Source of the DNA: Eledone cirrhosa
Taxonomy: Eukaryota
Reading direction: 5' to 3'
Length of the DNA stretch: 64,000 nt
Assembly: GCA_964016885.1 (NCBI GenBank)
Contig: OZ024742.1
Location: 113,646,001 to 113,710,000 of the forward strand
The translations under genes and the position numbers were made by a program. Position 1 is the first letter of the stretch. Every line of letters starts with the position of its first letter. Shown here piece after piece: positions 126-58,836 of the stretch. A model generated the notes under the pieces. That model had not been told where the DNA came from, did no database searches, and saw only the letters and a list, made by a program, of their open reading frames with translations.

Positions 126-308
126 TAATTGTTTCTACTTTTGGCACAAAGCCAGCATTTACTGAATACATTACTGGTACTTTATTTTATCGACCCCGTA
201 AGGATCAAAGCAAAGTTAACATCGGCGGGATTTGAACTCTGAATGGCAAGAGCCGTAACTCTATGTGTCAAATCATGGCGTCCGACCCCTACCGATACTG
301 CCAATCCA
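126..308 (-). mobile_element. tRNA-derived SINE, family A
   Basis: Minus strand reads TGGATTGGCAGTATCGGTAG (A-box-like) ... GAGTTCAAATCCC (B box) ... CCTTTACGGGGTCGATAAAATAAAGTACCAGT; nine similar copies in the window. Confidence 0.9.
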
Positions 309-410
309 AACTAATAATAATAATAATAAATGTGAAGAATAAAATCCAAAGAGGGCTCGATAAGGATAATATATATATCAAATATATAAGAACCCTAGAG
401 CAGGTGTTTA

Positions 411-8171: not shown

Positions 8172-8687
<516 letters not shown>

Positions 8688-10527: not shown

Positions 10528-10568
<41 letters not shown>

Positions 10569-10770
10569 TCGTTTGGAAGCCTCGACAATGCAAATGGGTA
10601 AAACTCCGGGTAACAATGTCCGGTGGTGGAGAGAGAGATGTAAGTGGGTGTACGTTCAGATGCGTGGTGTCTATAAGATGTCTGAGTTGTGTAGAATGGA
10701 TGGAAGAGTAAAAGGATAAAAATAAAAATAACAACACAAGAGAGAGTTACCTTGGGAGAGATTTAATAGT

Positions 10771-10819
10771 CCCTATATATTTCGGATTCACATCCATCAA
10801 CTGAGGTTTTTTTCAGGGG
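10771..10819 (-). ncRNA. atypical hammerhead-like motif with core insertion (mirror copy at 12379-12427 +)
   Basis: CCC-CTGAAAAAAACCTCAGTTGAT-GGATgtgaATCC-GAAA-TATA-TA-GGG. Confidence 0.45.
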
Positions 10820-11473
10820 TGGGGGAAAAGGTGGTCTGTTGGACAAGTCCGGAAGGCGTCTTTCGCTGTTTGCTGATTTGAATATCTGAGGTATTCGGCA
10901 GAGCGCGCGTGCGCGTGAAATGGGGTCGGTCGTACAAAGGTCAGCGGCCGAATGAGGGAGTGGGATGGCGCTAGCTGTCAGTCCATTCTCTGCCTGTTTG
11001 TTAGATGTTACTGTGTGTGTGTGTGCGTGTGTTGTTGTCTCGCTTGAGTGTGTGTGTGTGTGTGTGTGCGTGTGTTGTTGCCTTGTTCATCTGTATTGGC
11101 AGTGTAGTATGTTCGTATGGTGGAATGCTACAATGTGTGTGTGCGTGTTTGTGCGTGTGTGTGTGTGGTTGTATCGTTTGTGTGTGTGTGTGTGCGTGCG
11201 TGTGTTGTGTGTTGTTGCATCGCTTGTTAACTTAAACCAGCCATTTCATTTCGCTTCTCTCTGATCGGTTGTTTATTTGCGGTTGCAGGCGTTTGATAAA
11301 AAATGCTTGCTTGATACGTAACGTGCCGACGTTTCTTTCAGTCGCTAGAATTGTGACAATGGGCCTTCCGTCTTTGTTTCCGCATTTGTTTATGTGTTTC
11401 CGGAAAGACGAGGCCCTGGTTTTAGTGTGTTCCTTGATCCGGATGTGCAAAGGTCAAATTGTGCTACCTATGT

Positions 11474-11982
11474 TACAGAGAAACACCCAAGGCAAGTGCT
11501 TCCTTAAAATGCCACACCTGGGCGAGAAAACCACCAACGCTATCCGCAAGGCTATACGGAGGGAGGGCCTCGACATCCACCTGGCCCACTCGGGCCCCTC
11601 CCTGCGAAGATGCCTCTCCAGGAAACCCGAAAAATCTATTGACGCATGCTCCCTCAGAGAATGCCCGACACGCCATGCTAACTGTTGCCTACGCACATAC
11701 GTCGTGTATGAGATAGAATGTGACAGGTGCAACCAATACTACATAGGTAGCACAATTCGACCTTTGCACATCCGACTCAAGGAACACACTAAAACCAGGG
11801 CCTCGTCTTTCCGGAAACACATAGACACATGCGGAAACAAAGACGGAAGGCCCATTGTCACAATTCTAGCGACTGAAAGAAACGTCGGCACGTTACATAT
11901 CAAGGAAGCACTTTTTATCAAACGCCTGCAACCGCAAATAAACAACCGATTAGAGAGAAGCGAAATGAAATGGCTGGTTTAA
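11474..11982 (+). pseudogene. PLE C-terminal GIY-YIG endonuclease fragment
   Basis: CSLRECPTRHANCCLRTYVVYEIECDRCNQYYIGSTIRPLHIRLKEH...LHIKEALFIKRLQPQINNRLE. Confidence 0.9.
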
Positions 11983-12007
11983 GTTAACAAGCGATGCAAC
12001 AACACAC

Positions 12008-12041
<34 letters not shown>

Positions 12042-12679
12042 AGACAACCACACACACACGCGCACACACACATTCCAGCATACGAATATACTACACTGAC
12101 AATACAGATGAACAAAGCAACAACACACACACACACACACACACACACACTCAATCGAGACAACAACACACGCACACACACACACGGTAACATCTAACAA
12201 ACAGGCAGAGAATGGACTGACACCTAGCGCCATCCCACTCCCTCATTCGGCCGCTGACCTTTGTACGACCGACCCCATTTCACGTGTACGCGTGCTCTAC
12301 CGAATACCTCAGATATTCAAATCAGCAAACAGCGAAAGACGCCTTCCGGACTTGTCCGAAAGACAATCTTTTCCCCCACCCCGGAAAAAAACCCCAGTTA
12401 ATGGATGTGAATCCGAAATATATAGGGACTATTCTCTCCCAAGGTAACTCTCTCTTGTGTTGTTATTTTTATTTTTATCCTTTTACTCTTCTCTCCATTC
12501 TACACATCTCACATATCTTATACACACCACGCATCTCAACGTACACCCACTTACATCTCTCTCTCCGCCACCGGACCTTGTTACCCGGAGATTTACCCAT
12601 TTGCATTGTCGAGGCTTCCAAACGACTTATAGATATTTACTTATTGTTCCACAATGCTTCAAGCAAACTTCAATACTCT

Positions 12680-12718
<39 letters not shown>

Positions 12719-12822
12719 CATGGAGTTTTATATCTGGCGACATGAGGTGTGTTTATAGATAAACATTTTGCAAGCCTTCCGCTGTGAATTAGAAAACTGA
12801 CATAGTAACGTTTTCTGACTTG

Positions 12823-28216: not shown

Positions 28217-28396
28217 GTTTCTACTGTTGGCGCAAGGCAAGTAATTATGCCAGTGTGTTACTCGTGCTTTATTTCATCGACCCGTAAGGCTGAAAGTTAA
28301 CCTCGTGAGGATTTGAACTCAGACCATAAAGGAACATAAATATTTGCTGCAAAGCATGGCGTCAGACCCTCTACCAATACTGCCAATCCACTGCCC
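28211..28396 (-). mobile_element. tRNA-derived SINE, family A
   Basis: Matches 126-308 including the GAGTTCAAATCC B box. Confidence 0.88.
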
Positions 28397-29919: not shown

Positions 29920-29981
<62 letters not shown>

Positions 29982-30072
29982 CGAAGGAAATGTGGTAAGG
30001 AACCAGGTGGACCATAACGCACCAAAGTACTCAATACTTGAGGTAGTAGAGTGGGTAATAGGAACCAGTAAG

Positions 30073-30166
30073 ACCCCGACAGCTGAGCTCAAGCCGTTTC
30101 GACGGCTAATTCTGGACTAAATGAACATTTATCCTGGTATTTAAATAGCCGATCTTCTCAAGGGGT
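30073..30166 (-). ncRNA. type I hammerhead ribozyme (U3-A8, extended stem II), inverted pLTR copy
   Basis: Reverse complement of 31405-31498. Confidence 0.85.
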
Positions 30167-31404
30167 AATTCCATATATGGTCAAAGTGATTGTCAAAAAT
30201 CAGTAGTAATTCTGTGGTTGCAAATTAGTGGGGAGATGGTGGCTAAACCTGCCAGTAGGAGAAAGAGGGGAGGGGGTGGAGTAGACCCAATCAAGCGTTG
30301 GTAGTGCCAGCTACAGCTGGGCATGAGGTCAAAGAAGATACAGGGGAGGGGGAGGGGGAGGAAGTCGGAACGGTAGGTAGAACAATGGGGGGTAAAGATA
30401 GGAAAGAAAAAATACTGAGAGTGCAGAAAAGCAAATAAGTGTAAAGAAAAAATTAAATTCTACGACCTAGGTGTCAGGTTATTGTTAAGCGAGAATAAAA
30501 TAAAGAAAGAAAGAAAGAAGTAAATAAATAAATAAATAAATAAATAAGGAAATAAGTAAAAGAACTAGGTGGGACGAATTAGGCAAGGACCCTTTTAAGA
30601 GGTATAAGTACGTAAATGATACGGTGACTGGTCAACAAAAGGGGCCAAAATACTAAAGAGACTACCACGAAATAAACAATAAAGGTTTCCATCCCGGGCC
30701 AGCAACGACCCAGTGCAGCAAAGTGAACTTGTACGACATAATAATTCTGAGTCCCGGGAAAAATATATACTAATGCTAACTCTAAAAGATCTAAAACAGG
30801 CTACATGAAAGTTCGTACGAAATAAAGGTAGAATACGGAGAAATAAGTTCAGAATCCACCCCGCCCAGAAGAAAAGCGAAGCAAGAAATACTGAAACGAA
30901 AAAATAAGGCATAAGTGCCACTAAGAAATATAGAGGGCACAGAGAATAGTGGGAGCGGTCGGAAAAGGGGGGCAAGTATCCGGGGTCTAAGCCAACTGCT
31001 ATAAAGGGCGGAGTCCGCCAAATCTATCAAAGACTAGGGGAGGGGGGAGTGGGGGTACTAAGGCTACATGGGGCCAAAGGAATTTAATTTTTTGGGATGT
31101 TCTTGGTAGAGAATTTAATTTTTTCTTTACACTTATTTGCTTTTCTTCACTCTCAGTATTTTTTCTTTCCTATCTTTACCCCCCATTGTTCTACCTACCG
31201 TTCCGACTTCCTCCCCCTCCCCCTCCCCTGTATCTTCTTTGACCTCATGCCCAGCTGTAGCTGGCACTACCAACTCTTGATTGGGTCTACTCCACCCCCT
31301 CCCCTCTTTCTCCTACTGGCAGGTTTAGCCACCATCTCCCCACTAATTTGCAACCACAGAATTACTACTGATTTTTGACAATCACTTTGACCATATATGG
31401 AATT

Positions 31405-31498
31405 ACCCCTTGAGAAGATCGGCTATTTAAATACCAGGATAAATGTTCATTTAGTCCAGAATTAGCCGTCGAAACGGCTTGAGCTCAGCTGTCGGGGT
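31405..31498 (+). ncRNA. type I hammerhead ribozyme (U3-A8, extended stem II), 5' pLTR copy
   Basis: ACCCC-TTGAGAA-GAtCGGCTA[37 nt]TAGCCGTC-GAAA-CGGCttgagctcaGCTG-TC-GGGGT; GUC cleavage predicted after 31493. Confidence 0.85.
31424..31456 (+). promoter_or_regulatory. candidate Pol II core promoter (TATA box + initiator) inside hammerhead stem II
   Basis: TATTTAAA at 31424 and Inr-like TTAGTC with A at 31453 (29-nt spacing); short family copies start at this A/G. Confidence 0.55.
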
Positions 31499-31683
31499 CT
31501 TACTGGTTCCTATTACCCACTCTACTACCTCAAGTATTGAGTACTTTGGTGCGTTATGGTCCACCTGGTTCCTTACCACATTTCCTTCGTTATCTAGCTC
31601 CTACTCCCGTAGTAGAGCACTTTCCGACCCTACCACGCCGTATCCAGACTTTTCCGCTAAGCTCAATTCATTTCACCCGCACC

Positions 31684-33837
31684 ATGCGAAAACACAACAT
31701 TGACTTCTCTACCAAGAACATCCCAATCCCACCGAAAAAACTTTACCTTCGGATGCTCACGCAAAAAATTGATCTATTTGCGAAAAGACTTAGATGGAGA
31801 ACTTTTTTCTATGACAGATATTGCGACAACCAAGACTTCGGCACCAAGGAGAGATTCGGATTTATTACCTACAAATCTCCGCCCCTGAACCCCTTGCTCG
31901 CACCCTTCGAGAATGACCTCTTCCAACTGGTCAAGAACATTAAATTTAAACCCAGACACAACCGATTCCTACAAAAACTCCGTAGCAACTTAACAGAGTA
32001 TGATAACACAAATGACATCATGGTGCATTCGGATAAAACTGGGAACCTATACTTTGTCAACCCTGACAGATACCACACACTGATCAGGAGCAGCCTAAAC
32101 TCCACCTATAAAAAGGCCAACCACTCTTGCATCGAGGACATAAATCGAGATGGACAACAAATCACCTCCAGCCTCGGGGTCGCCGACCGCACGGAACCTC
32201 TAGACCCACGGACACCATACTTCACACTGAAGGACCATAAATCCGATTTTGACCGTAAACCCTCCATCAGGCTTATTAACCCAACGAAGTCCGACATAGG
32301 GAGAATCAGCAAAAAAATCCTAGACCGCGTGATACCAAAAGTCAAGCAACACACCCGACTTAGCCTATGGATCAACACCCAGGAAGTAATCTCCTGGTTC
32401 AGCAATATGGAGGATAAACGAGAAACTAAATTCATACAGTTCGACATAGAGAGCTACTATGCTTCAATCACCTTACCGCTACTTACTGCCGCCTTGGACT
32501 TCGCCGAAACACTCGTGCCCATCACCGACCAGGAAAGAAAAATCATCCTCCACGCCAGGAAGACAGTCTTACTCTTTGACGACTCTAAATGGATAAAAAG
32601 AGCTCCCGACTCACCCTTCGACGTCAGCACGGGCGCCACAGATTCGGCGGAGGTCACTGATCTTATAGGATTATTCCTAATAGCCAAACTCACTGATATG
32701 TTTCCTGCATTCGGTGGTGGATTGTACCGTGATGATGGGCTCCTTACCCTTAAAGGGTACAACCCCAGTAGTACAGATCGGGTCCGGAAACAATTAATCA
32801 GATTCTTCCGCGACTGGGGATTTAAAATAACCCTACAAACGTCCCTGACCCGAGTAAACTTCCTGGACGTAACCCTCGACCTCGAAAACGACCTGTACTA
32901 CCCATACAGGAAACCTAATGACAATCTGCACTACATCCACCGCCGATCAAACCATCCTAGGAACATCACAAACAACCTGGTCAAAAACATCTCCCTCCGC
33001 ATATCCCGTTTGTCAGCTAATGAGCGGATATTCGATGAACATGCGCCTTATTACAACCAGGCCCTCAAGCGGAGTGGTTTCCGGGAGGAAATATCCTACT
33101 GTCCAGATCCCATTAGCGGAACCAGCAGGAGACACCGCCGCTCACGCAATGTAACATGGTTCAATCCTCCCCACAACGCAGAGGTGACTACTCCCATCGG
33201 GAAACTATTCTTTAGGCTCATTGAAAAACACTTCCCATTACAACACCGCTACCACAACATAATTAACAAAAATACCATCAAACTCTCTTACAGCACTACA
33301 CCAAACTTCGCACAAAACATCGTCTCCTCTAACAACAAAAAACTCAACCCCGATGGCAGAAATAACCTAAATAGCAGTGGAGAACCGACCAGGAGGTGTA
33401 ACTGCCCGGATAGATCTATTTGCCCACTCGACAATAGATGCAGAGACCGTAATGTGATCTACCAGTGCAACGTGAGGACGGATACCTCCAACAAAGCCTA
33501 TATAGGACTTACCGCATGTGACTTCAAGACCCGGCTATACCAACATAGACATACCTTCCGAAACCCGGCCCGGCGTCACGCCACTACACTTTCGGGCCAC
33601 ATATGGGACCTCAAGGACAACAACATCACCTATGATCTCACTTGGAGATTACTGTCCAGAGCCAATTCTTACACGGGAGGACGCCGTCCGTGCAATTTAT
33701 GCTCGGAGGAAACTTTACAAATGCTGTTTTCGACGGACCAACTCCTAAACAAGAAAGATGAACTGGTTACTGCATGTAAACATAGATTGCGTAGGACTTA
33801 CCTCGCCCTCAAACCCCATAATGACCCGGGGGGGTAG
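31684..33837 (+). CDS. PLE polyprotein: reverse transcriptase + CxC zinc linker + GIY-YIG endonuclease (717 aa from the first ATG)
   Basis: RT motifs FIQFDIESYYASI, GLYRDDGL, VNFLDVTLDL; linker CNCPDRSICPLDNRC; EN VIYQC...AYIGLT...FKTRLYQH...CNLCSEE...CKH; ATG at 31684 lies within the 31537-33837 open frame. Confidence 0.95.
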   Translation: MRKHNIDFSTKNIPIPPKKLYLRMLTQKIDLFAKRLRWRTFFYDRYCDNQDFGTKERFGFITYKSPPLNPLLAPFENDLFQLVKNIKFKPRHNRFLQKLRSNLTEYDNTNDIMVHSDKTGNLYFVNPDRYHTLIRSSLNSTYKKANHSCIEDINRDGQQITSSLGVADRTEPLDPRTPYFTLKDHKSDFDRKPSIRLINPTKSDIGRISKKILDRVIPKVKQHTRLSLWINTQEVISWFSNMEDKRETKFIQFDIESYYASITLPLLTAALDFAETLVPITDQERKIILHARKTVLLFDDSKWIKRAPDSPFDVSTGATDSAEVTDLIGLFLIAKLTDMFPAFGGGLYRDDGLLTLKGYNPSSTDRVRKQLIRFFRDWGFKITLQTSLTRVNFLDVTLDLENDLYYPYRKPNDNLHYIHRRSNHPRNITNNLVKNISLRISRLSANERIFDEHAPYYNQALKRSGFREEISYCPDPISGTSRRHRRSRNVTWFNPPHNAEVTTPIGKLFFRLIEKHFPLQHRYHNIINKNTIKLSYSTTPNFAQNIVSSNNKKLNPDGRNNLNSSGEPTRRCNCPDRSICPLDNRCRDRNVIYQCNVRTDTSNKAYIGLTACDFKTRLYQHRHTFRNPARRHATTLSGHIWDLKDNNITYDLTWRLLSRANSYTGGRRPCNLCSEETLQMLFSTDQLLNKKDELVTACKHRLRRTYLALKPHNDPGG

Positions 33838-34940
33838 ACTAGGGCTATAACACCCCAGTTGCCGATTTTGCAATGGGTAACCCCTGCTTGCCAAGGAAGA
33901 CGTAAGATCTTCTTTGTATTCTTTTATCGCATCCTTTATTTCCTTCCCCCCTCTCTCCTTTGTCCTTCTACCCCAGCTCTTCTCCTTTGTCGGCGTCTTT
34001 TCTCGCCCACCCGAGTTTGCCCTTTGGCCCCATGTAGCCTTAGTACCCCCACTCCCCCCTCCCCTAGTCTTTGATAGATTTGGCGGACTCCGCCCTTTAT
34101 AGCAGTTGGCTTAGACCCCGGATACTTGCCCCCCTTTTCCGACCGCTTCCACTATTCTCTGTGCCCTCTATATTTCTTAGTGGCACTTATGCCTTATTTT
34201 TTCGTTTCAGTATTTCTTGCTTCGCTTTTCTTCTGGGCGGGGTGGATTCTGAACTTATTTCTCCGTATTCTACCTTTATTTCGTACGAACTTTCATGTAG
34301 CCTGTTTTAGATCTTTTAGAGTTAGCATTAGTATATATTTTTCCCGGGACTCAGAATTATTATGTCGTACAAGTTCACTTTGCTGCACTGGGTCGTTGCT
34401 GGCCCGGGATGGAAACCTTTATTGTTTATTTCGTGGTAGTCTCTTTAGTATTTTGGCCCCTTTTGTTGACCAGTCACCGTATCATTTACGTACTTATACC
34501 TCTTAAAAGGGTCCTTGCCTAATTCGTCCCACCTAGATCTTTTACTTATTTCCTTATTTATTTATTTATTTATTTATTTACTTCTTTCTTTCTTTCTTTA
34601 TTTTATTCTCGCCTAACAATAGCCTGACACCTAGGTCGTAGAATTTAATTTTTTCTTTACACTTATTTGCTTTTCTTCACTCTCAGTATTTTTTCTTTCC
34701 TATCTTTACCCCCCATTGTTCTACCTACCGTTCCGACTTCCTCCCCCTCCCCCTCCCCCTCCCCTGTATCTTCTTTGACCTCATGCCCAGCTGTAGCTGG
34801 CACTACCAACGCTTGATTGGGTCTACTCCACCCCCTCCCCTCTTTCTCCTACTGGCAGGTTTAGCCACCATCTCCCCACTAATTTGCAACCACAGAATTA
34901 CTACTGATTTTTGACAATCACTTTGACCATATATGGAATT

Positions 34941-35034
34941 ACCCCTTGAGAAGATCGGCTATTTAAATACCAGGATAAATGTTCATTTAGTCCAGAATTA
35001 GCCGTCGAAACGGCTTGAGCTCAGCTGTCGGGGT
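34941..35034 (+). ncRNA. type I hammerhead ribozyme (U3-A8, extended stem II), 3' pLTR copy
   Basis: Identical to 31405-31498; cleavage predicted after 35029; the element ends 19 nt later at (TA)n. Confidence 0.85.
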
Positions 35035-35044
35035 CTTACTGGTT

Positions 35045-35086
<42 letters not shown>

Positions 35087-35119
35087 TTTCTATATATATA
35101 ATTATATATATATATATAT

Positions 35120-35327
35120 GAAAATGTTCAAGACCCCATCGGCAGAGCTAAAGCCGTTTCGACGGAGTCCAGAAAGCCGTTCTGGAGTCCAGAAATAGCT
35201 GTCGTAACGGCTTGAGCTCTCTGTCATCGAGGACTTGAACATTTTCCTACTACCCACTCTACTATAATTAGTATTGAGTACTCTAGTGCGTTGTGGTCCA
35301 GATGGTTACTTAACACACTTCCTTCGG
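35120..35327. mobile_element. diverged head-to-head pLTR fragment of the same PLE family
   Basis: Minus arm 35120-35165; plus arm starts AGTCCAGAAATAGCTGTCG at 35186 and ends CTTCCTTCG at 35326. Confidence 0.85.
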
Positions 35328-36591: not shown

Positions 36592-38031
36592 GAAGAAATT
36601 ATTAACCTTATAACTTCTAAATCTAATTAGAAACTGGATAATGTGTGTATATGTGACGCACATGGTTCCCAAATTTAGCGTGTATTGCAGACAATGGCCA
36701 CTAAAAATAGCACGTAAAGTTACAAGATGGACTATCGGCCAATACAAGCCCAAAACTCAGAAGAATATGGAGTATACATCTATTAAAGCTTAGGAAAGAT
36801 ATCAAGAAAAAGTTGGCTAAGATTATGAGTGAGCAGTTACAAACATATATATAGACCAAATAGCAAGGAAGTGATTAACATGTTGAACCCACATTGCAAA
36901 TATTGTATAATGCAAAAACTTGAAACAGAAAAGGTAATATAATGCGAGAATTACAGTACGATATATAATATAATATGATATAATAGATGGTGATAATAAA
37001 AACCTTAATATATGTATATATATATATCTATACATATACACATTAGTACACAAACTAACACTTATTAAGTATTTAAATATATATATATATATATTGTTGA
37101 CAGTATAATATAATAAAGATAAAAATAAGAATAAAGATAAAAATAAAAATAAAATATAATATATAATTCCCTGTCAGTGTGCATAAACAATATAAAAACA
37201 TTATAATAACATTATAATAACAATATTATAATATATTGGCATCAAAAGATATACAAAATTACATCATAAATATAATTCAAGGTTAACAAACAGCATAAAG
37301 TTTTACACAGGGTAAGAAAAAAACCATATAGAACTAAATTGTGTTGAAAAAATATTTATACCATTGTAACAAATACACGGAGGTCAAGTCATTTTACATT
37401 GGCATAAATATTACCAAAATATCACAAAATATTACAAAATATAACAGAACAGTACCTCAAATAACAGACATATATTAAAATCTATAATACGATTACATAA
37501 AAATGATATGATATAACAACGTTAATATCAAATAGCAAACAGAGTGTAAGGAAATGCTTAATATATATATTTACGTGGTTAACAAACACAGACATATATT
37601 AATGAAATTACATGATCAGACAGACAGCGTGTGGTAGTAAAAAAATAAATAAAATAAACCGAAGATCGAAAAACAAAAAAGAGAAAAGATAGAAATGTAA
37701 ACCGGCGAGTTGACTACAAAACCTTTTTAAATTAATTAATATTAAAAGTATTTAAAATACATATTTAGTCACTTAAAAATTGGCTAGTGTTTAAGTCATC
37801 AAAATCGTATAAGTTTAAGATATCTCAACAAAATTATCAAGAATAGAGTAAAATATGCTCCGTTCAGTCGAATAACGTTATCAAATAAAAGGACACTAAA
37901 TAGAACTATGGTAGACCATTGGGAACATAAAGAAGAGAGGTTATGGAGGATAGGAAGGAGCATAAAAGTAAAATCAATATATTATATAATATCATAAAAA
38001 GGAACATAAATATATATATATATATATAGTA

Positions 38032-38219
38032 ATAATTGCTTCTAGATTTGCTACAAAGCCAGCAATTATCCAGTACATTACTGGTACTTTATTTTATCGA
38101 CCCCGTAAGGATGAAAGGCAAAGTTGACCTCGGCGGAATTTGATCTCAGAATGGAAAGGGCCGTAACTCTATGCGTCAAAGCATTACGTCCGACCCGCTA
38201 CCGATACTGCCAATTCACC
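38032..38219 (-). mobile_element. tRNA-derived SINE, family A
   Basis: Matches family consensus. Confidence 0.9.
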
Positions 38220-38469
38220 TTCTTCTTCACCCATTTATTCCTGAGAGGGTTGTGGGGCCAGAGTCTTCAAACACTACCTCCAGTGGGTCTTGTCAGAAGC
38301 AACCATCTCCAAATGATCTGGCTGGATCCCCAAACAAGTCCAGTCAATCACAGTAATAATAATAAATTTGAAGACTCGATAAGCAGCAATCCTTTGCTTA
38401 ATCTTTAATCTGTTATGTTAATATATATATATATATGTGAGAAAAACCACAGACCCTCCATCTCTACTT

Positions 38470-38709: not shown

Positions 38710-40235
38710 ATTAAAATAACAGATTAAAGTTTAAGCAAATAATCTCTGCTTTCAGATTTAAGAATCATGTAAATAAATTAGTAGAACGAAAATGACGGAG
38801 GTTATTGAAATCCACAAAAATTAAATATATGCATACATGCATCTATATACTTACATACATATGCATACGCAGAACACCCGCCATGCATGCATATACAAGC
38901 ACGTATAAATAAACACCCGCACACATACATAAACCCGCACGACACCTATACCCGTACACATACAAACGTATACTCCAAACACATTAAAAAAATAATAAAA
39001 AAAATAAAAAAGTAACAAAATAATAAAAATATATATATATATGTGTTTGTGTATACATGTAATTATATTAACTTACATAAATATACACACATACACATGT
39101 AAATACCGCACGCACACAGGTATCTACAGGTAAATACACATGTTCACTAAACTACGGCAGCCAAAACACGAACTACACGTATACACACCTTACATACGGG
39201 TCAACACGCATAAACACACAAACCCAAAATACGCATTATACACATAACCATATACACAAGTACCAGTATATATAATTGTTTCTCCTTTTTGGCACAAGGC
39301 CAGAAATTTATTTAGTTCATTACCGGTACTTTATTTTATCGACGCCGTAAGGATGAAAGGCAAAGTTAACCACGGCGGGATTTGACCTCAGAATAACAGA
39401 GGCGGTAACTATATGCGTCAAAACATGGCGCCCGAACCTCTACCGATACTGCCAAACCACCGCCATTGTACCAGTATATATAATATAATATATACACCAA
39501 TAACAAATACAAGCAGATATACGTACGAGAAAGTATACGTACCATCACAAAACATACGGGTAAGGTATACTTACCTATAGAAATTAGTAATGGTATAAAC
39601 AAAACATATACTTAGCTACCACATCAATACGTACCACATCAAGACAAATTATCCGCGTATTGTTCGTACTATCCGTTAGTGTATAATGTGGGGCTGTAAT
39701 ACAGGAAAGGGTTATGCAATTTACGTTTACAAGCCGAAATTGCCTCACATTTTTTGTTTAAGATGTGGTCATTGGAGCAGAGTATTACCAGGGATTCAGC
39801 GGCGCAAATATAGCATGGTCTTTAATTTCCGTTATGCGATCTAGCCCTAGCTAAGATCTCCAAGTGTAACCTATATTGGGTGTGGTTTTCTTTTACACTC
39901 CAGATATAAGCTGAAAGTGACGTCATATTCCTTCTAAAAGGGTGACGAAAAGAATGGGTGTGTATGTAATGACGCTGCTTGAATCTATTGGCGGTTAACC
40001 CTATGTACGCCCTACGTGGGTGTTTCGACCTTACATTTGTAGACAATGTTACTGGAGAAGCATTTCCCGGATAGAGGGCAGTCAACCCGATTCCTACTAT
40101 TAGAGTTACTACTAGCTACAGAGGTGTACGTGTTCCTACGGTTAGGTAATTTAGATAAATTTGAAGCAGTGATGTTATGTGTAAGTTTAGGAGTCGTAGA
40201 ATAAGATATTTTAATGTTTTTTCTATTGAACATGT
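38710..40235 (-). mobile_element. 5'-truncated PLE: GIY-YIG remnant (39700-40235) plus 3' UTR/pLTR
   Basis: NIKISYSTTPKL...DCPLSGKC...IVYKC / AYIGLTANRFKQRHYIH...TSLSAYIW; the UTR ends in the 411-1381 pLTR family sequence. Confidence 0.88.
39272..39464 (-). mobile_element. tRNA-derived SINE, family A, with target-site duplication
   Basis: Family consensus; GTACCAGTATATATA on both sides; nested in the PLE UTR. Confidence 0.92.
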
Positions 40236-42476: not shown

Positions 42477-43124
42477 GTCTGCATATGAACAAATATATAA
42501 CCAACATTTAGTAGTACTACTCTCTTTAATTCGTTACGCATATATTTATTCAAATATAGAAGTAGGTTGTATGTTCTTAATAATTTGTCAACTAGAATCT
42601 CTAGACTTTCGGCTAATAATGATATTTCACCCCAAATGCCATATATTTTTATGGTGCTCTTTCCAGATCTGGCTATAAGGATAAAATACGGTTCACGCCT
42701 CTATGTAAATTAGCTAATAGTGGGATTTATGTACATAAATGTATTTTTAAACCTATTTGTATTATTGTGCACAAATATAATTTACTTAATGCTAATGAAA
42801 ATTCTAAAACTGTAAAAATAATAGATATTGTAATATTTAACGAAAAATAATAATTTTAATAAGAACATAATACTAAACTACAAGTAAATCTCTTGACAGT
42901 CAAACGTTAAACAAATAAATTAAATAATACTGAGAGGAAGGGAGAGAAACATATATAAATATTAATAACATATATGGAATTCAAATAGCGTCCCATACAT
43001 CCCAGATAATATTTAGTATGTTAAAAAAAACGTTTTACCCCAAGGACATAAATACTACACTGTAATAAACAAAAATATTGGTAAATTATCTTTCTCCACT
43101 ACATTTATTTTAGTTGAACTATAA

Positions 43125-43312
43125 ATAATTTTTTCTACTTTTGGCACAAGGCCAGCAAATACACAATGTATTACTGATTCTTTATGTTATCGACCCTGTA
43201 AGGATGAAATGCAAAGTTAACCTCGGTGGGATGTGAAATCAGAATGGCAAAGGCCGTTATTCTATACGTCAAAGAATGGTGCCCGACGTTCTACCGATGC
43301 TGCCAATCCACC
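43125..43312 (-). mobile_element. tRNA-derived SINE, family A
   Basis: Matches family consensus (diverged). Confidence 0.85.
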
Positions 43313-43539
43313 ATATTAACTTATATAAACTGGAACAAAAAACGTCCGGCACGAAACCAGCTCGAAGACGGGGATAACGTTAACAGTAATATTACTATCT
43401 ATTGTGTTGATATTAATGAACATTATAATGGGGACAATTTTAATTACAATAAGATAACGAATAGTGAAAATTATCTAACTTAACAGGGTAATATCTAAAT
43501 AATCTCTTAATAAGAAAAGTCTACTAACCAAATGAAATT

Positions 43540-47296: not shown

Positions 47297-47487
47297 ATAA
47301 TTGCTTCTATTTTTGGCAGGAGGCCAGCAATGATCCAGTACATTACTGGTACTTTAATTTATAGACCCCGTAGGATGAAAGGCAAAGTTAAACTCGTCGG
47401 GATTTCAACTAAGAATTGCAAGGGCCGTAACTCCAAGTAGCAAAGCATGGCATCCGACCCTCCATCGATACTGCCGGTCCACCGTCC
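47297..47487 (-). mobile_element. tRNA-derived SINE, family A
   Basis: Matches family consensus (diverged). Confidence 0.85.
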
Positions 47488-58280: not shown

Positions 58281-58469
58281 ATAATTGTTTCTACTTTTTG
58301 GCTCGAGGCCAGCATTAACCAGTGCATTACAGGTACTTTATTTTACCGACCCCCGTAAAGATGAAAGGCAAAGTTCACCTCGGTGGGATTTGAACTCAGA
58401 ATGGCAAGGGCCGTAACTCTATGCATCAAAGCATGGCGTAAGACCCTCTACCGATACTGCCAATCCACC
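58281..58469 (-). mobile_element. tRNA-derived SINE, family A, with 13-bp target-site duplication
   Basis: Family consensus; CTATTAAAATAAT on both sides. Confidence 0.93.
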
Positions 58470-58836
58470 TATTAAAATAATGTTTGTAGAATATTAGCGA
58501 AATAGGTTGCTTGTTATCAGTCCCATAGCTCTTAGAATTTGTGTCGCCTTAGTGTTACGCTAAAGGTATATAGACCAACCATTGTTGAAGCGAGTAATTA
58601 CAATATATTGTGCGGCTCTAGGTGTATCTGTGTGCTCCTTACTACCAGATGTTGCGTTGAATAATTTTCGAAGAAGTTAAATTTACTATGATTTCACTAG
58701 TGCTAAATACTCAACCATGACATATTATATTCCAAGTTCATAATTTTCCTTTACGTTGGTAATCCCTTTAACTTCGGCAGGTTATTCCAGGAATCTAACT
58801 CACTCTGTCGGTCTCTCTCTCTCTCTCACTCACTAT

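What the first reader, a model, noticed from the sequence alone, without database searches (positions are those of the whole stretch)
31405..31498. A promoter nested inside a hammerhead ribozyme: TATA box and initiator within stem II
Seen: a complete type I hammerhead (U3-A8 core, GUC site) whose stem II is extended by 37 nt. This region contains TATTTAAA (31424) and TTAGTC with A at 31453, 29 nt apart. Short family copies at 8.4, 35.2 and 48.4 kb begin at this A/G. Established: TATA about 30 nt upstream of a TCAGT-like Inr is the standard metazoan Pol II core promoter, and PLE pLTRs contain hammerheads. Inference: transcripts starting in the 5' pLTR carry only the 3' half of the ribozyme, so they keep their cap and are not cut. 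The downstream pLTR is transcribed whole and self-cleaves to make the 3' end, and host read-through RNA is cut at the 5' copy. One 94-nt module would act as both promoter and terminator; the half-ribozyme 5' leader might also be cleaved in trans by the 3' pLTR half. I do not know of this arrangement being described.
Basis: partly seen in the sequence, partly recalled or inferred. Interest (0 to 1): 0.9.

Follow-up and report, generated by a model that had tools for sequence, protein, structure and literature searches.

The report
Retrotransposon start site inside its ribozyme
A jumping gene carries a hammerhead-type ribozyme sequence with an unusually long loop, and thousands of its short copies stop inside that loop, likely because its RNA starts there and so would escape cutting itself; the proposed TATA box is not conserved.

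Summary
31405-31498 is a type I hammerhead (U3-A8 core, 37-nt loop II) in the pseudo-LTR of a young Hydra-clade Penelope-like element. TATTTAAA (31424) and TTAGTC (A31453) are present.

Genome-wide, most sampled copies are ~200-nt head-to-head hairpins: 84 of 96 arms end at 31447-31470. In hairpin joints, arms ending at A31453 often carry an extra G that the element does not encode (55 of 63). One independent test did not show this. Long copies run through the same site (23 of 25), which argues against reverse transcriptase stalling. A capped RNA 5' end inside the ribozyme is therefore likely, but no RNA data were available.

The TATA box is not supported. Its first five bases are stem II and covary with their partners, and other subfamilies read TATTCATA, TATTTATT or TAGATTCC while TYAGTY is kept. 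The terminator role is untested; 0 of 108 copies end at the cut, so templates for insertion are uncut or rejoined there. Verdict: new variant of a known kind.

The parts
31405..31498 (+). Type I hammerhead ribozyme motif with U3-A8 core, 37-nt loop II and palindromic loop III (GAGCTC, 31481-86); predicted cut after C31493
31417..31428 (+). Stem II 5' strand; pairs with 31460-31470 and contains the first five bases of the proposed TATA box
   Evidence: compensatory changes at alignment columns 19/68, 24/63, 25/62
31424..31431 (+). TATTTAAA; present in subfamilies A1/A3 only, not conserved in A2, B or C
31437..31457 (+). Weak inner hairpin of loop II (-3.4 kcal/mol); candidate stall site in the rival reading
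31447..31456 (+). Overlapping initiator-like words TCA(31449)TTT and TTA(31453)GTC; inferred RNA 5' end, main site A31453, possible second site A31449
31464..31479 (+). Alternative 6-bp hairpin predicted in an RNA starting at 31453; it hides the stem II 3' strand and GAAA
31510..31513 (+). Short 3' end of copies (first inferred RT start site), 17-20 nt past the ribozyme cut
   Evidence: 52 of 108 arms end at 31510-13
31590..31593 (+). Long 3' end of copies (second inferred RT start site; about 80-nt tail), 97-100 nt past the cut
   Evidence: 47 of 108 arms end at 31591-93
31110..31513 (+). 5' pseudo-LTR (upstream partial unit)
31684..33837 (+). Intact 717-aa ORF: RT plus C-terminal GIY-YIG endonuclease with Hydra-clade motifs (RWR, DKT, CxCx5C, CxxC, CxH)
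34640..35049 (+). 3' pseudo-LTR with a second hammerhead (34941-35034, predicted cut 35029), ending in (TA)n; unit length 3536 nt
29975..31080 (-). Inverted 5'-truncated copy with the long tail and a third hammerhead (30073-30166)
8361..8560 (+). Short head-to-head hairpin copy in (TA)n; arms end at the equivalents of 31454 and 31457
8217..8345 (.). Short copy: inverted arm to the equivalent of 31454, joined to 31526 onward
35117..35326 (+). Older family B short hairpin-type copy; forward arm starts at the equivalent of A31453
48283..48449 (-). Short hairpin-type copy; arms end at the equivalents of 31454 and 31456

Best explanation
This is the hammerhead of a Hydra-clade Penelope-like retrotransposon whose RNA likely starts, probably capped, at an initiator-like site (A31453) inside the ribozyme's enlarged loop II, so that the mRNA would carry only the 3' half of the ribozyme and would not be cut at its 5' end. 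The promoter is inferred to be initiator-type and not to need the TATA word. The element's RT is inferred to prime internally, on both nicked strands of a (TA)n target, at two sites about 60 and 140 nt from this 5' end. Both cDNAs would run off the RNA end and be joined head to head, giving the many ~200-nt hairpin copies. Long and tandem copies run through the site, so they would come from longer RNA (read-through multimers or circles) that is uncut or rejoined at the ribozyme. Whether the downstream ribozyme cuts the mRNA 3' end is open. Shown: the motif, breakpoint positions, joint letters, covariation and 3' ends. Inferred: transcription start, cap, priming order and any cleavage.
For: (1) Position. 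84 of 96 arms in a position-ordered sample end at 31447-31470. In 25 of 34 hairpins the further-reaching arm ends at 31449-31455, and in 16 at 31453-54. Of 79 arms with T at -1, 49 stop by -6, one near -21, and 29 continue as pLTR. DNA contig depth rises about 8-fold at the 31452 bin in run X1. (2) Arms primed about 60 and 140 nt away stop at the same place; 34 of 34 hairpins pair one short with one long arm. (3) Extra G at -1. The single base between a +2 arm and a +1 arm is G in 55, A in 6 and C in 2 of 63 joints genome-wide; the control joint one base along has G 5, T 14 of 19. After arms ending at +1, by hand count of the first 100 of 898 rows, 24 cDNA-C against 4 cDNA-G remain once 72 fillers that copy element sequence are dropped. 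After arms ending at +2, 45 of the first 100 of 584 rows continue G-C, which again puts C at -1. No full copy has G at -1 among the 12 hits. These joints occur in three subfamilies and both orientations (40 loci). An untemplated 5' G is read as a copied cap in L1 (PMC9341517, passages). (4) 23 of 25 long copies that reach the ribozyme pass the site (15 of 17 independent loci), against 12 of 96 arms overall (Fisher p about 1e-9). (5) TYAGTY is kept in families A, B and C although the loop around it differs, and family C copies also stop at that A. (6) The ribozyme looks selected: position 7 varies freely and stem II covaries.
Against: There is no RNA evidence of any kind. The edge is not one base: of 16,133 arms reaching A31453, 7,821 have TTT before it, and about half of those stop at -3 to -6. 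This needs a second start at A31449 or slippage on the U run. The cluster also coincides with the 3' arm of the inner hairpin (31449-57). Copies joined straight to (TA)n show no G excess: G 20, C 29 among 83 hits (confounded by microsatellite variants). Before dropping element-like fillers, one search is only 60 C to 40 G. The G could also arise by slippage onto a nearby GAC-G. Family C arms ending at +1 were preceded by C in 7 cases, not G. Only 1-2 of 17 long loci end near +1, although a linear +1 RNA read through a downstream tail should give such copies. No good DPE sits at +28. The long-copy sample is subfamily A1 only, while the 96 arms are mixed.
Confidence: 0.62

Rival explanations
1. 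There is no start site here. RT stalls in the inner hairpin or another loop II structure of a longer RNA soon after priming, and the two cDNAs are joined.
For: Breakpoints span the 3' arm of the inner hairpin and fall to almost none beyond its loop. No G excess in (TA)n-joined copies. Many arms reach -3 to -6.
Against: The hairpin is weak (-3.4 kcal/mol) and stronger stems are passed. 23 of 25 long copies pass the site. Family C has a different loop yet stops at the same A. Other hammerhead-bearing hairpin families in this genome include the whole ribozyme. A stall does not explain a C fixed at -1.
Confidence: 0.13
2. The 5' end at about 31453 is real but made by processing (an endonuclease cut or exonuclease stop, perhaps with recapping, or RT's own end additions). 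Transcription starts upstream of the ribozyme, as in D. virilis Penelope.
For: In D. virilis the start is at 371 and the ribozyme begins at the end of the intron (416-491), so the start lies upstream (PMC2377424, PMC4209133). The NbRZ1 retrozyme start is also upstream of the ribozyme cut (PMC12029980). DNA copies cannot tell how a 5' end was made. RTs can add untemplated bases at any template end (recalled).
Against: The end falls on a conserved initiator-like Y-A. The added C is tied to position -1 even when the +1 base is miscopied. Family C's second cluster also falls on a T-A, at -11.
Confidence: 0.14
3. [quoted passage not shown]
For: The words and the 29-nt spacing are present in the youngest subfamily (21 of 32 full copies read TATTTAAA). 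The 3' UTR has no AATAAA or ATTAAA. An mRNA cut at 35029 would keep only the leader's RT start sites, which fits the excess of hairpin copies.
Against: TATA is not conserved and overlaps stem II. 0 of 108 arms end at the cut, and 0 genome-wide in the one (TA)n phase tested. 6 of 32 full copies have a C3-A8 mismatch in the core. In the anole element, cleavage is dispensable for insertion in vitro and no reads ended at the cut (PMC11167929).
Confidence: 0.08
4. The short hairpins are a self-propagating non-autonomous family copied from a few masters, so their shared breakpoint reflects ancestry rather than an RNA end.
For: Some joints recur many times.
Against: Joints are very diverse. The same joint occurs in three subfamilies and both orientations.
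Confidence: 0.03

Closest known systems
Hydra clade of Penelope-like elements (Craig et al. 2021, PMC8557442)
   Same: RWK-like, DKT, CxCx5C, CxxC and CxH motifs; C-terminal GIY-YIG without CCHH; (TA)n targets; hammerhead near the 3' end; pLTR, inverted copy and tail.
   Different: The six Hydra hammerheads I saw in its supplement have a canonical core and a 4-9-nt loop 2. Relatives in metagenome contigs have 10-25 nt between A9 and G12 (28 of 78 loci), against 54 nt here. The unit is 3.5 kb against generally under 3 kb.
Penelope of Drosophila virilis (PMC2377424, PMC4209133)
   Same: The start lies in the pLTR, the promoter is TATA-less with an initiator, and a hammerhead sits in the pLTR.
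   Different: Its start is about 120 nt upstream of the ribozyme, with an intron between, so the RNA holds the whole ribozyme. Here the inferred start splits it.
Poseidon PAc of the green anole (PMC11167929)
   Same: Two internal RT start sites define the tail, both target strands are cut and extended, and ribozyme cleavage is not needed for insertion.
   Different: There the start codon overlaps stem II and the work is in vitro. Here 34 of 34 genomic hairpins use one start site per arm and stop inside loop II.
Pr77/L1TcRz of Trypanosoma cruzi L1Tc (PMC3383444)
   Same: One short sequence is both internal promoter and self-cleaving ribozyme.
   Different: It is an HDV-like ribozyme that cuts just before +1 and stays whole in the RNA. 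Here the start would remove half of a hammerhead.
Retrozymes, e.g. NbRZ1 (PMC12029980, PMC7229834)
   Same: Terminal repeats hold both a promoter and a hammerhead. NbRZ1 shows the cost of starting upstream: the cut RNA was not translated.
   Different: They are non-autonomous and start upstream of the cut. The circles shown for retrozymes are only a possibility here.

Membership tests
Hydra-clade PLE | RWK motif and DKT in place of DKG | tested here: met
   RWR at residue 37, DKT at 117 (definition)
Hydra-clade PLE | C-terminal GIY-YIG without CCHH; CxCx5C linker; CxxC and CxH | tested here: met
   CNCPDRSIC 572, VIY 591, YIG 606, CNLC 670, CKH 698; Pfam scan itself gave 0 families
Hydra-clade PLE | Insertion into (TA)n; pLTR, inverted copy, tail | tested here: met
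Hydra-clade PLE | Placement in an RT tree with reference Hydra families | not tested
   No tree built; nearest database proteins are 38-53% identical and unnamed as PLEs
Type I hammerhead ribozyme | Core with a 3-8 pair, GAAA, NUH, three stems | tested here: met
   U3-A8 core, known from Schistosoma PLEs; 26 of 32 full copies keep it, 6 have C3-A8
Type I hammerhead ribozyme | Covariation in stems | tested here: met
   3 stem II pairs change on both sides; 0 of 500 shuffles reach the covariation score; 13 related, hand-picked sequences
Type I hammerhead ribozyme | Match to an Rfam hammerhead model | tested here: not met
   No hammerhead among 102 matches at E<=1; the long loop II may be why
Type I hammerhead ribozyme | Self-cleavage | not testable with these tools
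   Needs an in vitro assay
TATA-Inr Pol II core promoter | Conserved TATAWAWR about 30 nt upstream of +1 (consensus recalled) | tested here: not met
   1 mismatch in A1, 2 in A2 and B, 4 in C; overlaps stem II
Initiator-type Pol II promoter | TCAKTY-like word with A at +1 (consensus recalled) | tested here: met
   TTAGTC, TCAGTC and TTAGTT in A, B and C; one minor variant reads TCAGTA
Initiator-type Pol II promoter | Capped RNA 5' ends at the word | tested here: inconclusive
   Indirect only: G at -1; not; no RNA reads
Initiator-type Pol II promoter | DPE at +28 to +32 (consensus recalled) | tested here: not met
   TGAGCT for +1=31453, GGCTTG for +1=31449

The most novel reading that the evidence does not exclude
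This lineage has grown a transcription start inside loop II of its own hammerhead, so one module sorts RNAs by origin. RNA started by the element is half-ribozyme, capped and translated. RNA reading in from upstream holds the whole ribozyme and is cut, ending the mRNA and releasing unit-length RNA that can circularise and template the long tandem copies. The genome's many hairpin mini-copies are then a fossil 5'-RACE that records the cap and both RT start sites.
Probability: 0.3. Interest if true: 0.82.

Novelty: new variant of a known kind. Interest (0 to 1): 0.62.

Why it matters
What hammerheads do in Penelope-like elements is unresolved, and only two such promoters have been mapped according to PMC8557442. 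A start inside the ribozyme would solve a known conflict: a promoter upstream of an active hammerhead yields an RNA that loses its cap and is not translated (PMC12029980). It also gives a short, testable module. Apart from the promoter claim, the hairpin copies give genomic support for the two-site, two-strand priming seen in vitro for the anole element, and suggest how the inverted copies and tails of these elements arise.

Tried and rejected
No RNA holder was listed for window 31300-33800. The four runs laid were contigs and cannot show starts.

Rfam found no hammerhead and Pfam no family for the ORF. The protein search of the own genome returned only identical copies, so it gave no distant families. 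The earlier-findings look-up returned nothing.

The (TA)n-joined cap test showed no G excess.

Considered and rejected:
- Splicing or trans-splicing at TTTAG: short copies carry no upstream exon or common leader, only the inverted arm or (TA)n.
- Fold-back priming through the inner hairpin: the joints lack its loop and 5' arm.
- Generic A-tailing as the source of the TTT extension: only 2 of 52 truncated arms have TTT in the subfamily with C at -1 (hand count of the first 100 of 1,184 rows).
- A master element with G at -1: 0 of 12 hits.
- Naiad or Nematis clade: domain order and motifs fit Hydra.

PMC23255 (newt ribozyme) and PMC5785218 (PLE dimers) were not held. The newt satellite 2 precedent, a promoter-made 5' end shortly upstream of the cut, is recalled and unchecked.

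Full report
THE ELEMENT. The finding lies in the 5' pseudo-LTR of a Penelope-like retrotransposon. There is an inverted truncated copy at 29975-31080, a pLTR at 31110-31513, a 717-aa ORF at 31684-33837 and a second pLTR at 34640-35049, with (TA)n at both ends. The unit is 3536 nt. The protein has RWR, DKT, CxCx5C, VIY...YIG, CxxC and CxH, which match the Hydra clade as defined in section 11 of PMC8557442. I built no tree. The family is young: 40 near-identical hits, some in tandem arrays of four units. The 3.0-Gb host was not identified.

THE RIBOZYME. Across 13 hand-picked full copies from subfamilies A1-A4, B and C, 90.8% of cells pair and three stem II pairs change on both sides (related sequences, so the shuffle result is not a probability). 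Core position 7 varies among G, U and A, and the palindromic loop III is kept. U3-A8 cores are known in Schistosoma PLEs (PMC4209133). Rfam does not detect the motif. Six of 32 full copies have a C3-A8 mismatch, so full activity may not be needed for spread. The long loop is unusual. 28 of 78 related metagenome loci had a detectable hammerhead, all with 10-25 nt between A9 and G12 (2 of 78 on the reverse strand as control). The six Hydra rows I saw in the Craig supplement have loops of 4-9 nt.

THE TATA BOX FAILS. TATTT is the 5' strand of stem II. Family B reads GGCTATTT opposite AAATAGCC, and family C reads AGCTAGAT opposite ATCTAGCT. The eight bases read TATTTAAA, TATTCAAA, TATTCATA, TATTTATT and TAGATTCC, with 1, 2, 2, 2 and 4 mismatches to the recalled consensus. 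The initiator-like word is kept in all of them, and short copies of B and C stop there too. TATTTAAA may still help in A1, but it is not required.

WHERE COPIES STOP. A 30-mer from the ribozyme's 3' half has 33,210 exact hits; a family B pattern has 12,813 and a family C pattern 2,226. In a position-ordered sample from contig 1, 84 of 96 arms end at 31447-31470 and 12 go further. Most belong to ~200-nt head-to-head hairpins in (TA)n. All 34 hairpins parsed have one short and one long arm, and the further-reaching arm ends at 31449-55 in 25. With a fixed downstream anchor, 20,256 arms reach G31454: 4,123 have a base other than A next, 5,815 have A and then a base other than T, and 10,318 have TA; 7,821 have TTTA. 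Of 79 sampled TA arms, 29 continue as pLTR, 49 stop at -1 to -6 and one near -21. The edge is thus a window of about 13 nt followed by about 85 nt with almost no stops. In the subfamily with C at -1, TTT is rare (2 of 52 truncated arms, hand count), so the -3 cluster is templated or slipped. It may mark a second start at A31449.

IS IT AN RNA END? Two tests separate an end from a stall. First, long copies: of 30 sampled from 157 hits, 23 pass the site, two stop in or near it, and five stop further downstream. That is 15 of 17 independent loci against 12 of 96 arms (p about 1e-9); the samples differ in subfamily mix. Second, joint letters. Between a +2 arm and a +1 arm the single base is G 55, A 6, C 2 of 63; the control joint gives G 5, T 14 of 19 (T may be inflated by CpG decay). 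After +1 arms the first 100 of 898 rows give 60 C and 40 G on the cDNA strand; dropping 36 C and 36 G fillers that copy nearby element sequence leaves 24 to 4 (hand count). After +2 arms, 45 of the first 100 of 584 rows read G-C and 7 read C-C, so C again falls at -1 (hand count). These joints arose repeatedly (40 loci), and no full copy with G at -1 was found. This resembles the untemplated G attributed to copying the cap in L1 (PMC9341517). Against: (TA)n-joined copies gave G 20, C 29, family C arms had C before the A, and slippage could supply some Gs. I put a physical RNA end here at about 75%, and a transcription start at about 60%.

THE 3' END. Of 108 arms anchored upstream of the cut, none ends at 31493; 52 end at 31510-13, 47 at 31591-93 and 9 elsewhere. 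None was found genome-wide in the one (TA)n phase tested. RT therefore primes on RNA that continues past the cut, as in the anole element, where it starts at two internal sites and does not need cleavage (PMC11167929). This does not exclude cleavage of the mRNA's far end. The 3' UTR has no AATAAA or ATTAAA, and an RNA cut at 35029 would offer only the leader's start sites, which would yield hairpins. That step is untested. The two ribozyme halves can co-fold in trans at -23.4 kcal/mol, but the +1 leader forms a competing hairpin (minimum-energy fold; pairing probability about 0.33 with more downstream sequence), and the downstream 5' half has its own partner 60 nt away.

MECHANISM. Shown: motif, covariation, breakpoints, joint letters and 3' ends. 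Inferred: Pol II starts at A31453 in a pLTR; the capped half-ribozyme RNA is translated from 31684; the protein nicks both strands of (TA)n and primes at the two sites; run-off at the 5' end gives hairpins; priming on longer uncut or circular RNA gives truncated, full and tandem copies.

WHAT IS KNOWN. Promoters in pLTRs and hammerheads in pLTRs are both known. In D. virilis the start is upstream of the ribozyme and TATA-less (PMC2377424; PMC4209133). L1Tc has a dual promoter-ribozyme that stays whole in the RNA (PMC3383444). In NbRZ1 the start is upstream of the cut and the cut RNA is not translated (PMC12029980). Nine literature searches showed no start inside a hammerhead; the library lacks most subscription papers, and the newt satellite 2 work could not be read. 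What I saw of each paper: PMC4209133 parts 1-2 of 4; PMC11167929 parts 1-2 of 4; PMC2377424 parts 1-3 of 4; PMC12029980 parts 1-2 of 5; PMC8557442 passages, sections 3 and 11 and supplement passages; PMC9341517, PMC3383444, PMC7229834 and PMC6765202 passages only. Hammerhead numbering and the TATA, Inr and DPE consensus words are recalled.

VERDICT. Observation confirmed, interpretation partly supported. It is a new variant of a known kind, interest 0.62. The start inside the ribozyme is likely, the TATA box is not supported, and the terminator role is open.

Noticed in passing
L061-L130 (own genome, contig 1): 34 of 34 parsed hairpin copies pair one short-tailed with one long-tailed arm, which suggests each target strand is primed at a different RT start site.
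   Followed up: partly
L052, L054, L081, L140-type segments (e.g. L048, L081, L154, L179): Several other (TA)n-flanked hairpin families with canonical CUGAnGA hammerheads exist in this genome; their hairpin centres lie at or upstream of the ribozyme's 5' edge and could map other start sites.
   Followed up: no
L068, L130, L268, L296, L299, L308: A subfamily with a C3-A8 mismatch in the ribozyme core has still amplified (6 of 32 full copies).
   Followed up: partly
window 31464-31493: The 3' strands of stems II and III are near-identical 7-mers (identical in most subfamilies), as are their partners, which allows two exclusive folds like a switch.
   Followed up: partly
joints (e.g. L319-L325): The base opposite A31453 is often G instead of T before the added C, suggesting miscopying of the first nucleotide, perhaps a modified one.
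   Followed up: no
L351-L380 (family C): A second cluster of 5' ends at the A eleven bases upstream of the main one, also after a T.
   Followed up: partly
window 31399-31402 with 31507-31510: Stem I can extend past an internal loop, and the short 3' end of copies falls at the base of this extension.
   Followed up: no
window 31556-31597: An out-of-frame upstream ATG opens a 13-codon ORF in the 231-nt leader.
   Followed up: no
G000:C2:356030050-356031870: Seven matches to the leader spaced 299 nt apart: a satellite-like tandem of a pLTR-leader piece.
   Followed up: no
window 10550-12644: Another large inverted repeat (arms 10550-11473 and 11741-12644) around open frames at 11236-11982 and 12221-12745; possibly another retroelement insertion.
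   Followed up: no
window 212-310, 28293-28391, 38031-38224, 39273-39466, 43124-43317, 47384-47482, 58281-58474: A dispersed SINE-like repeat family.
   Followed up: no
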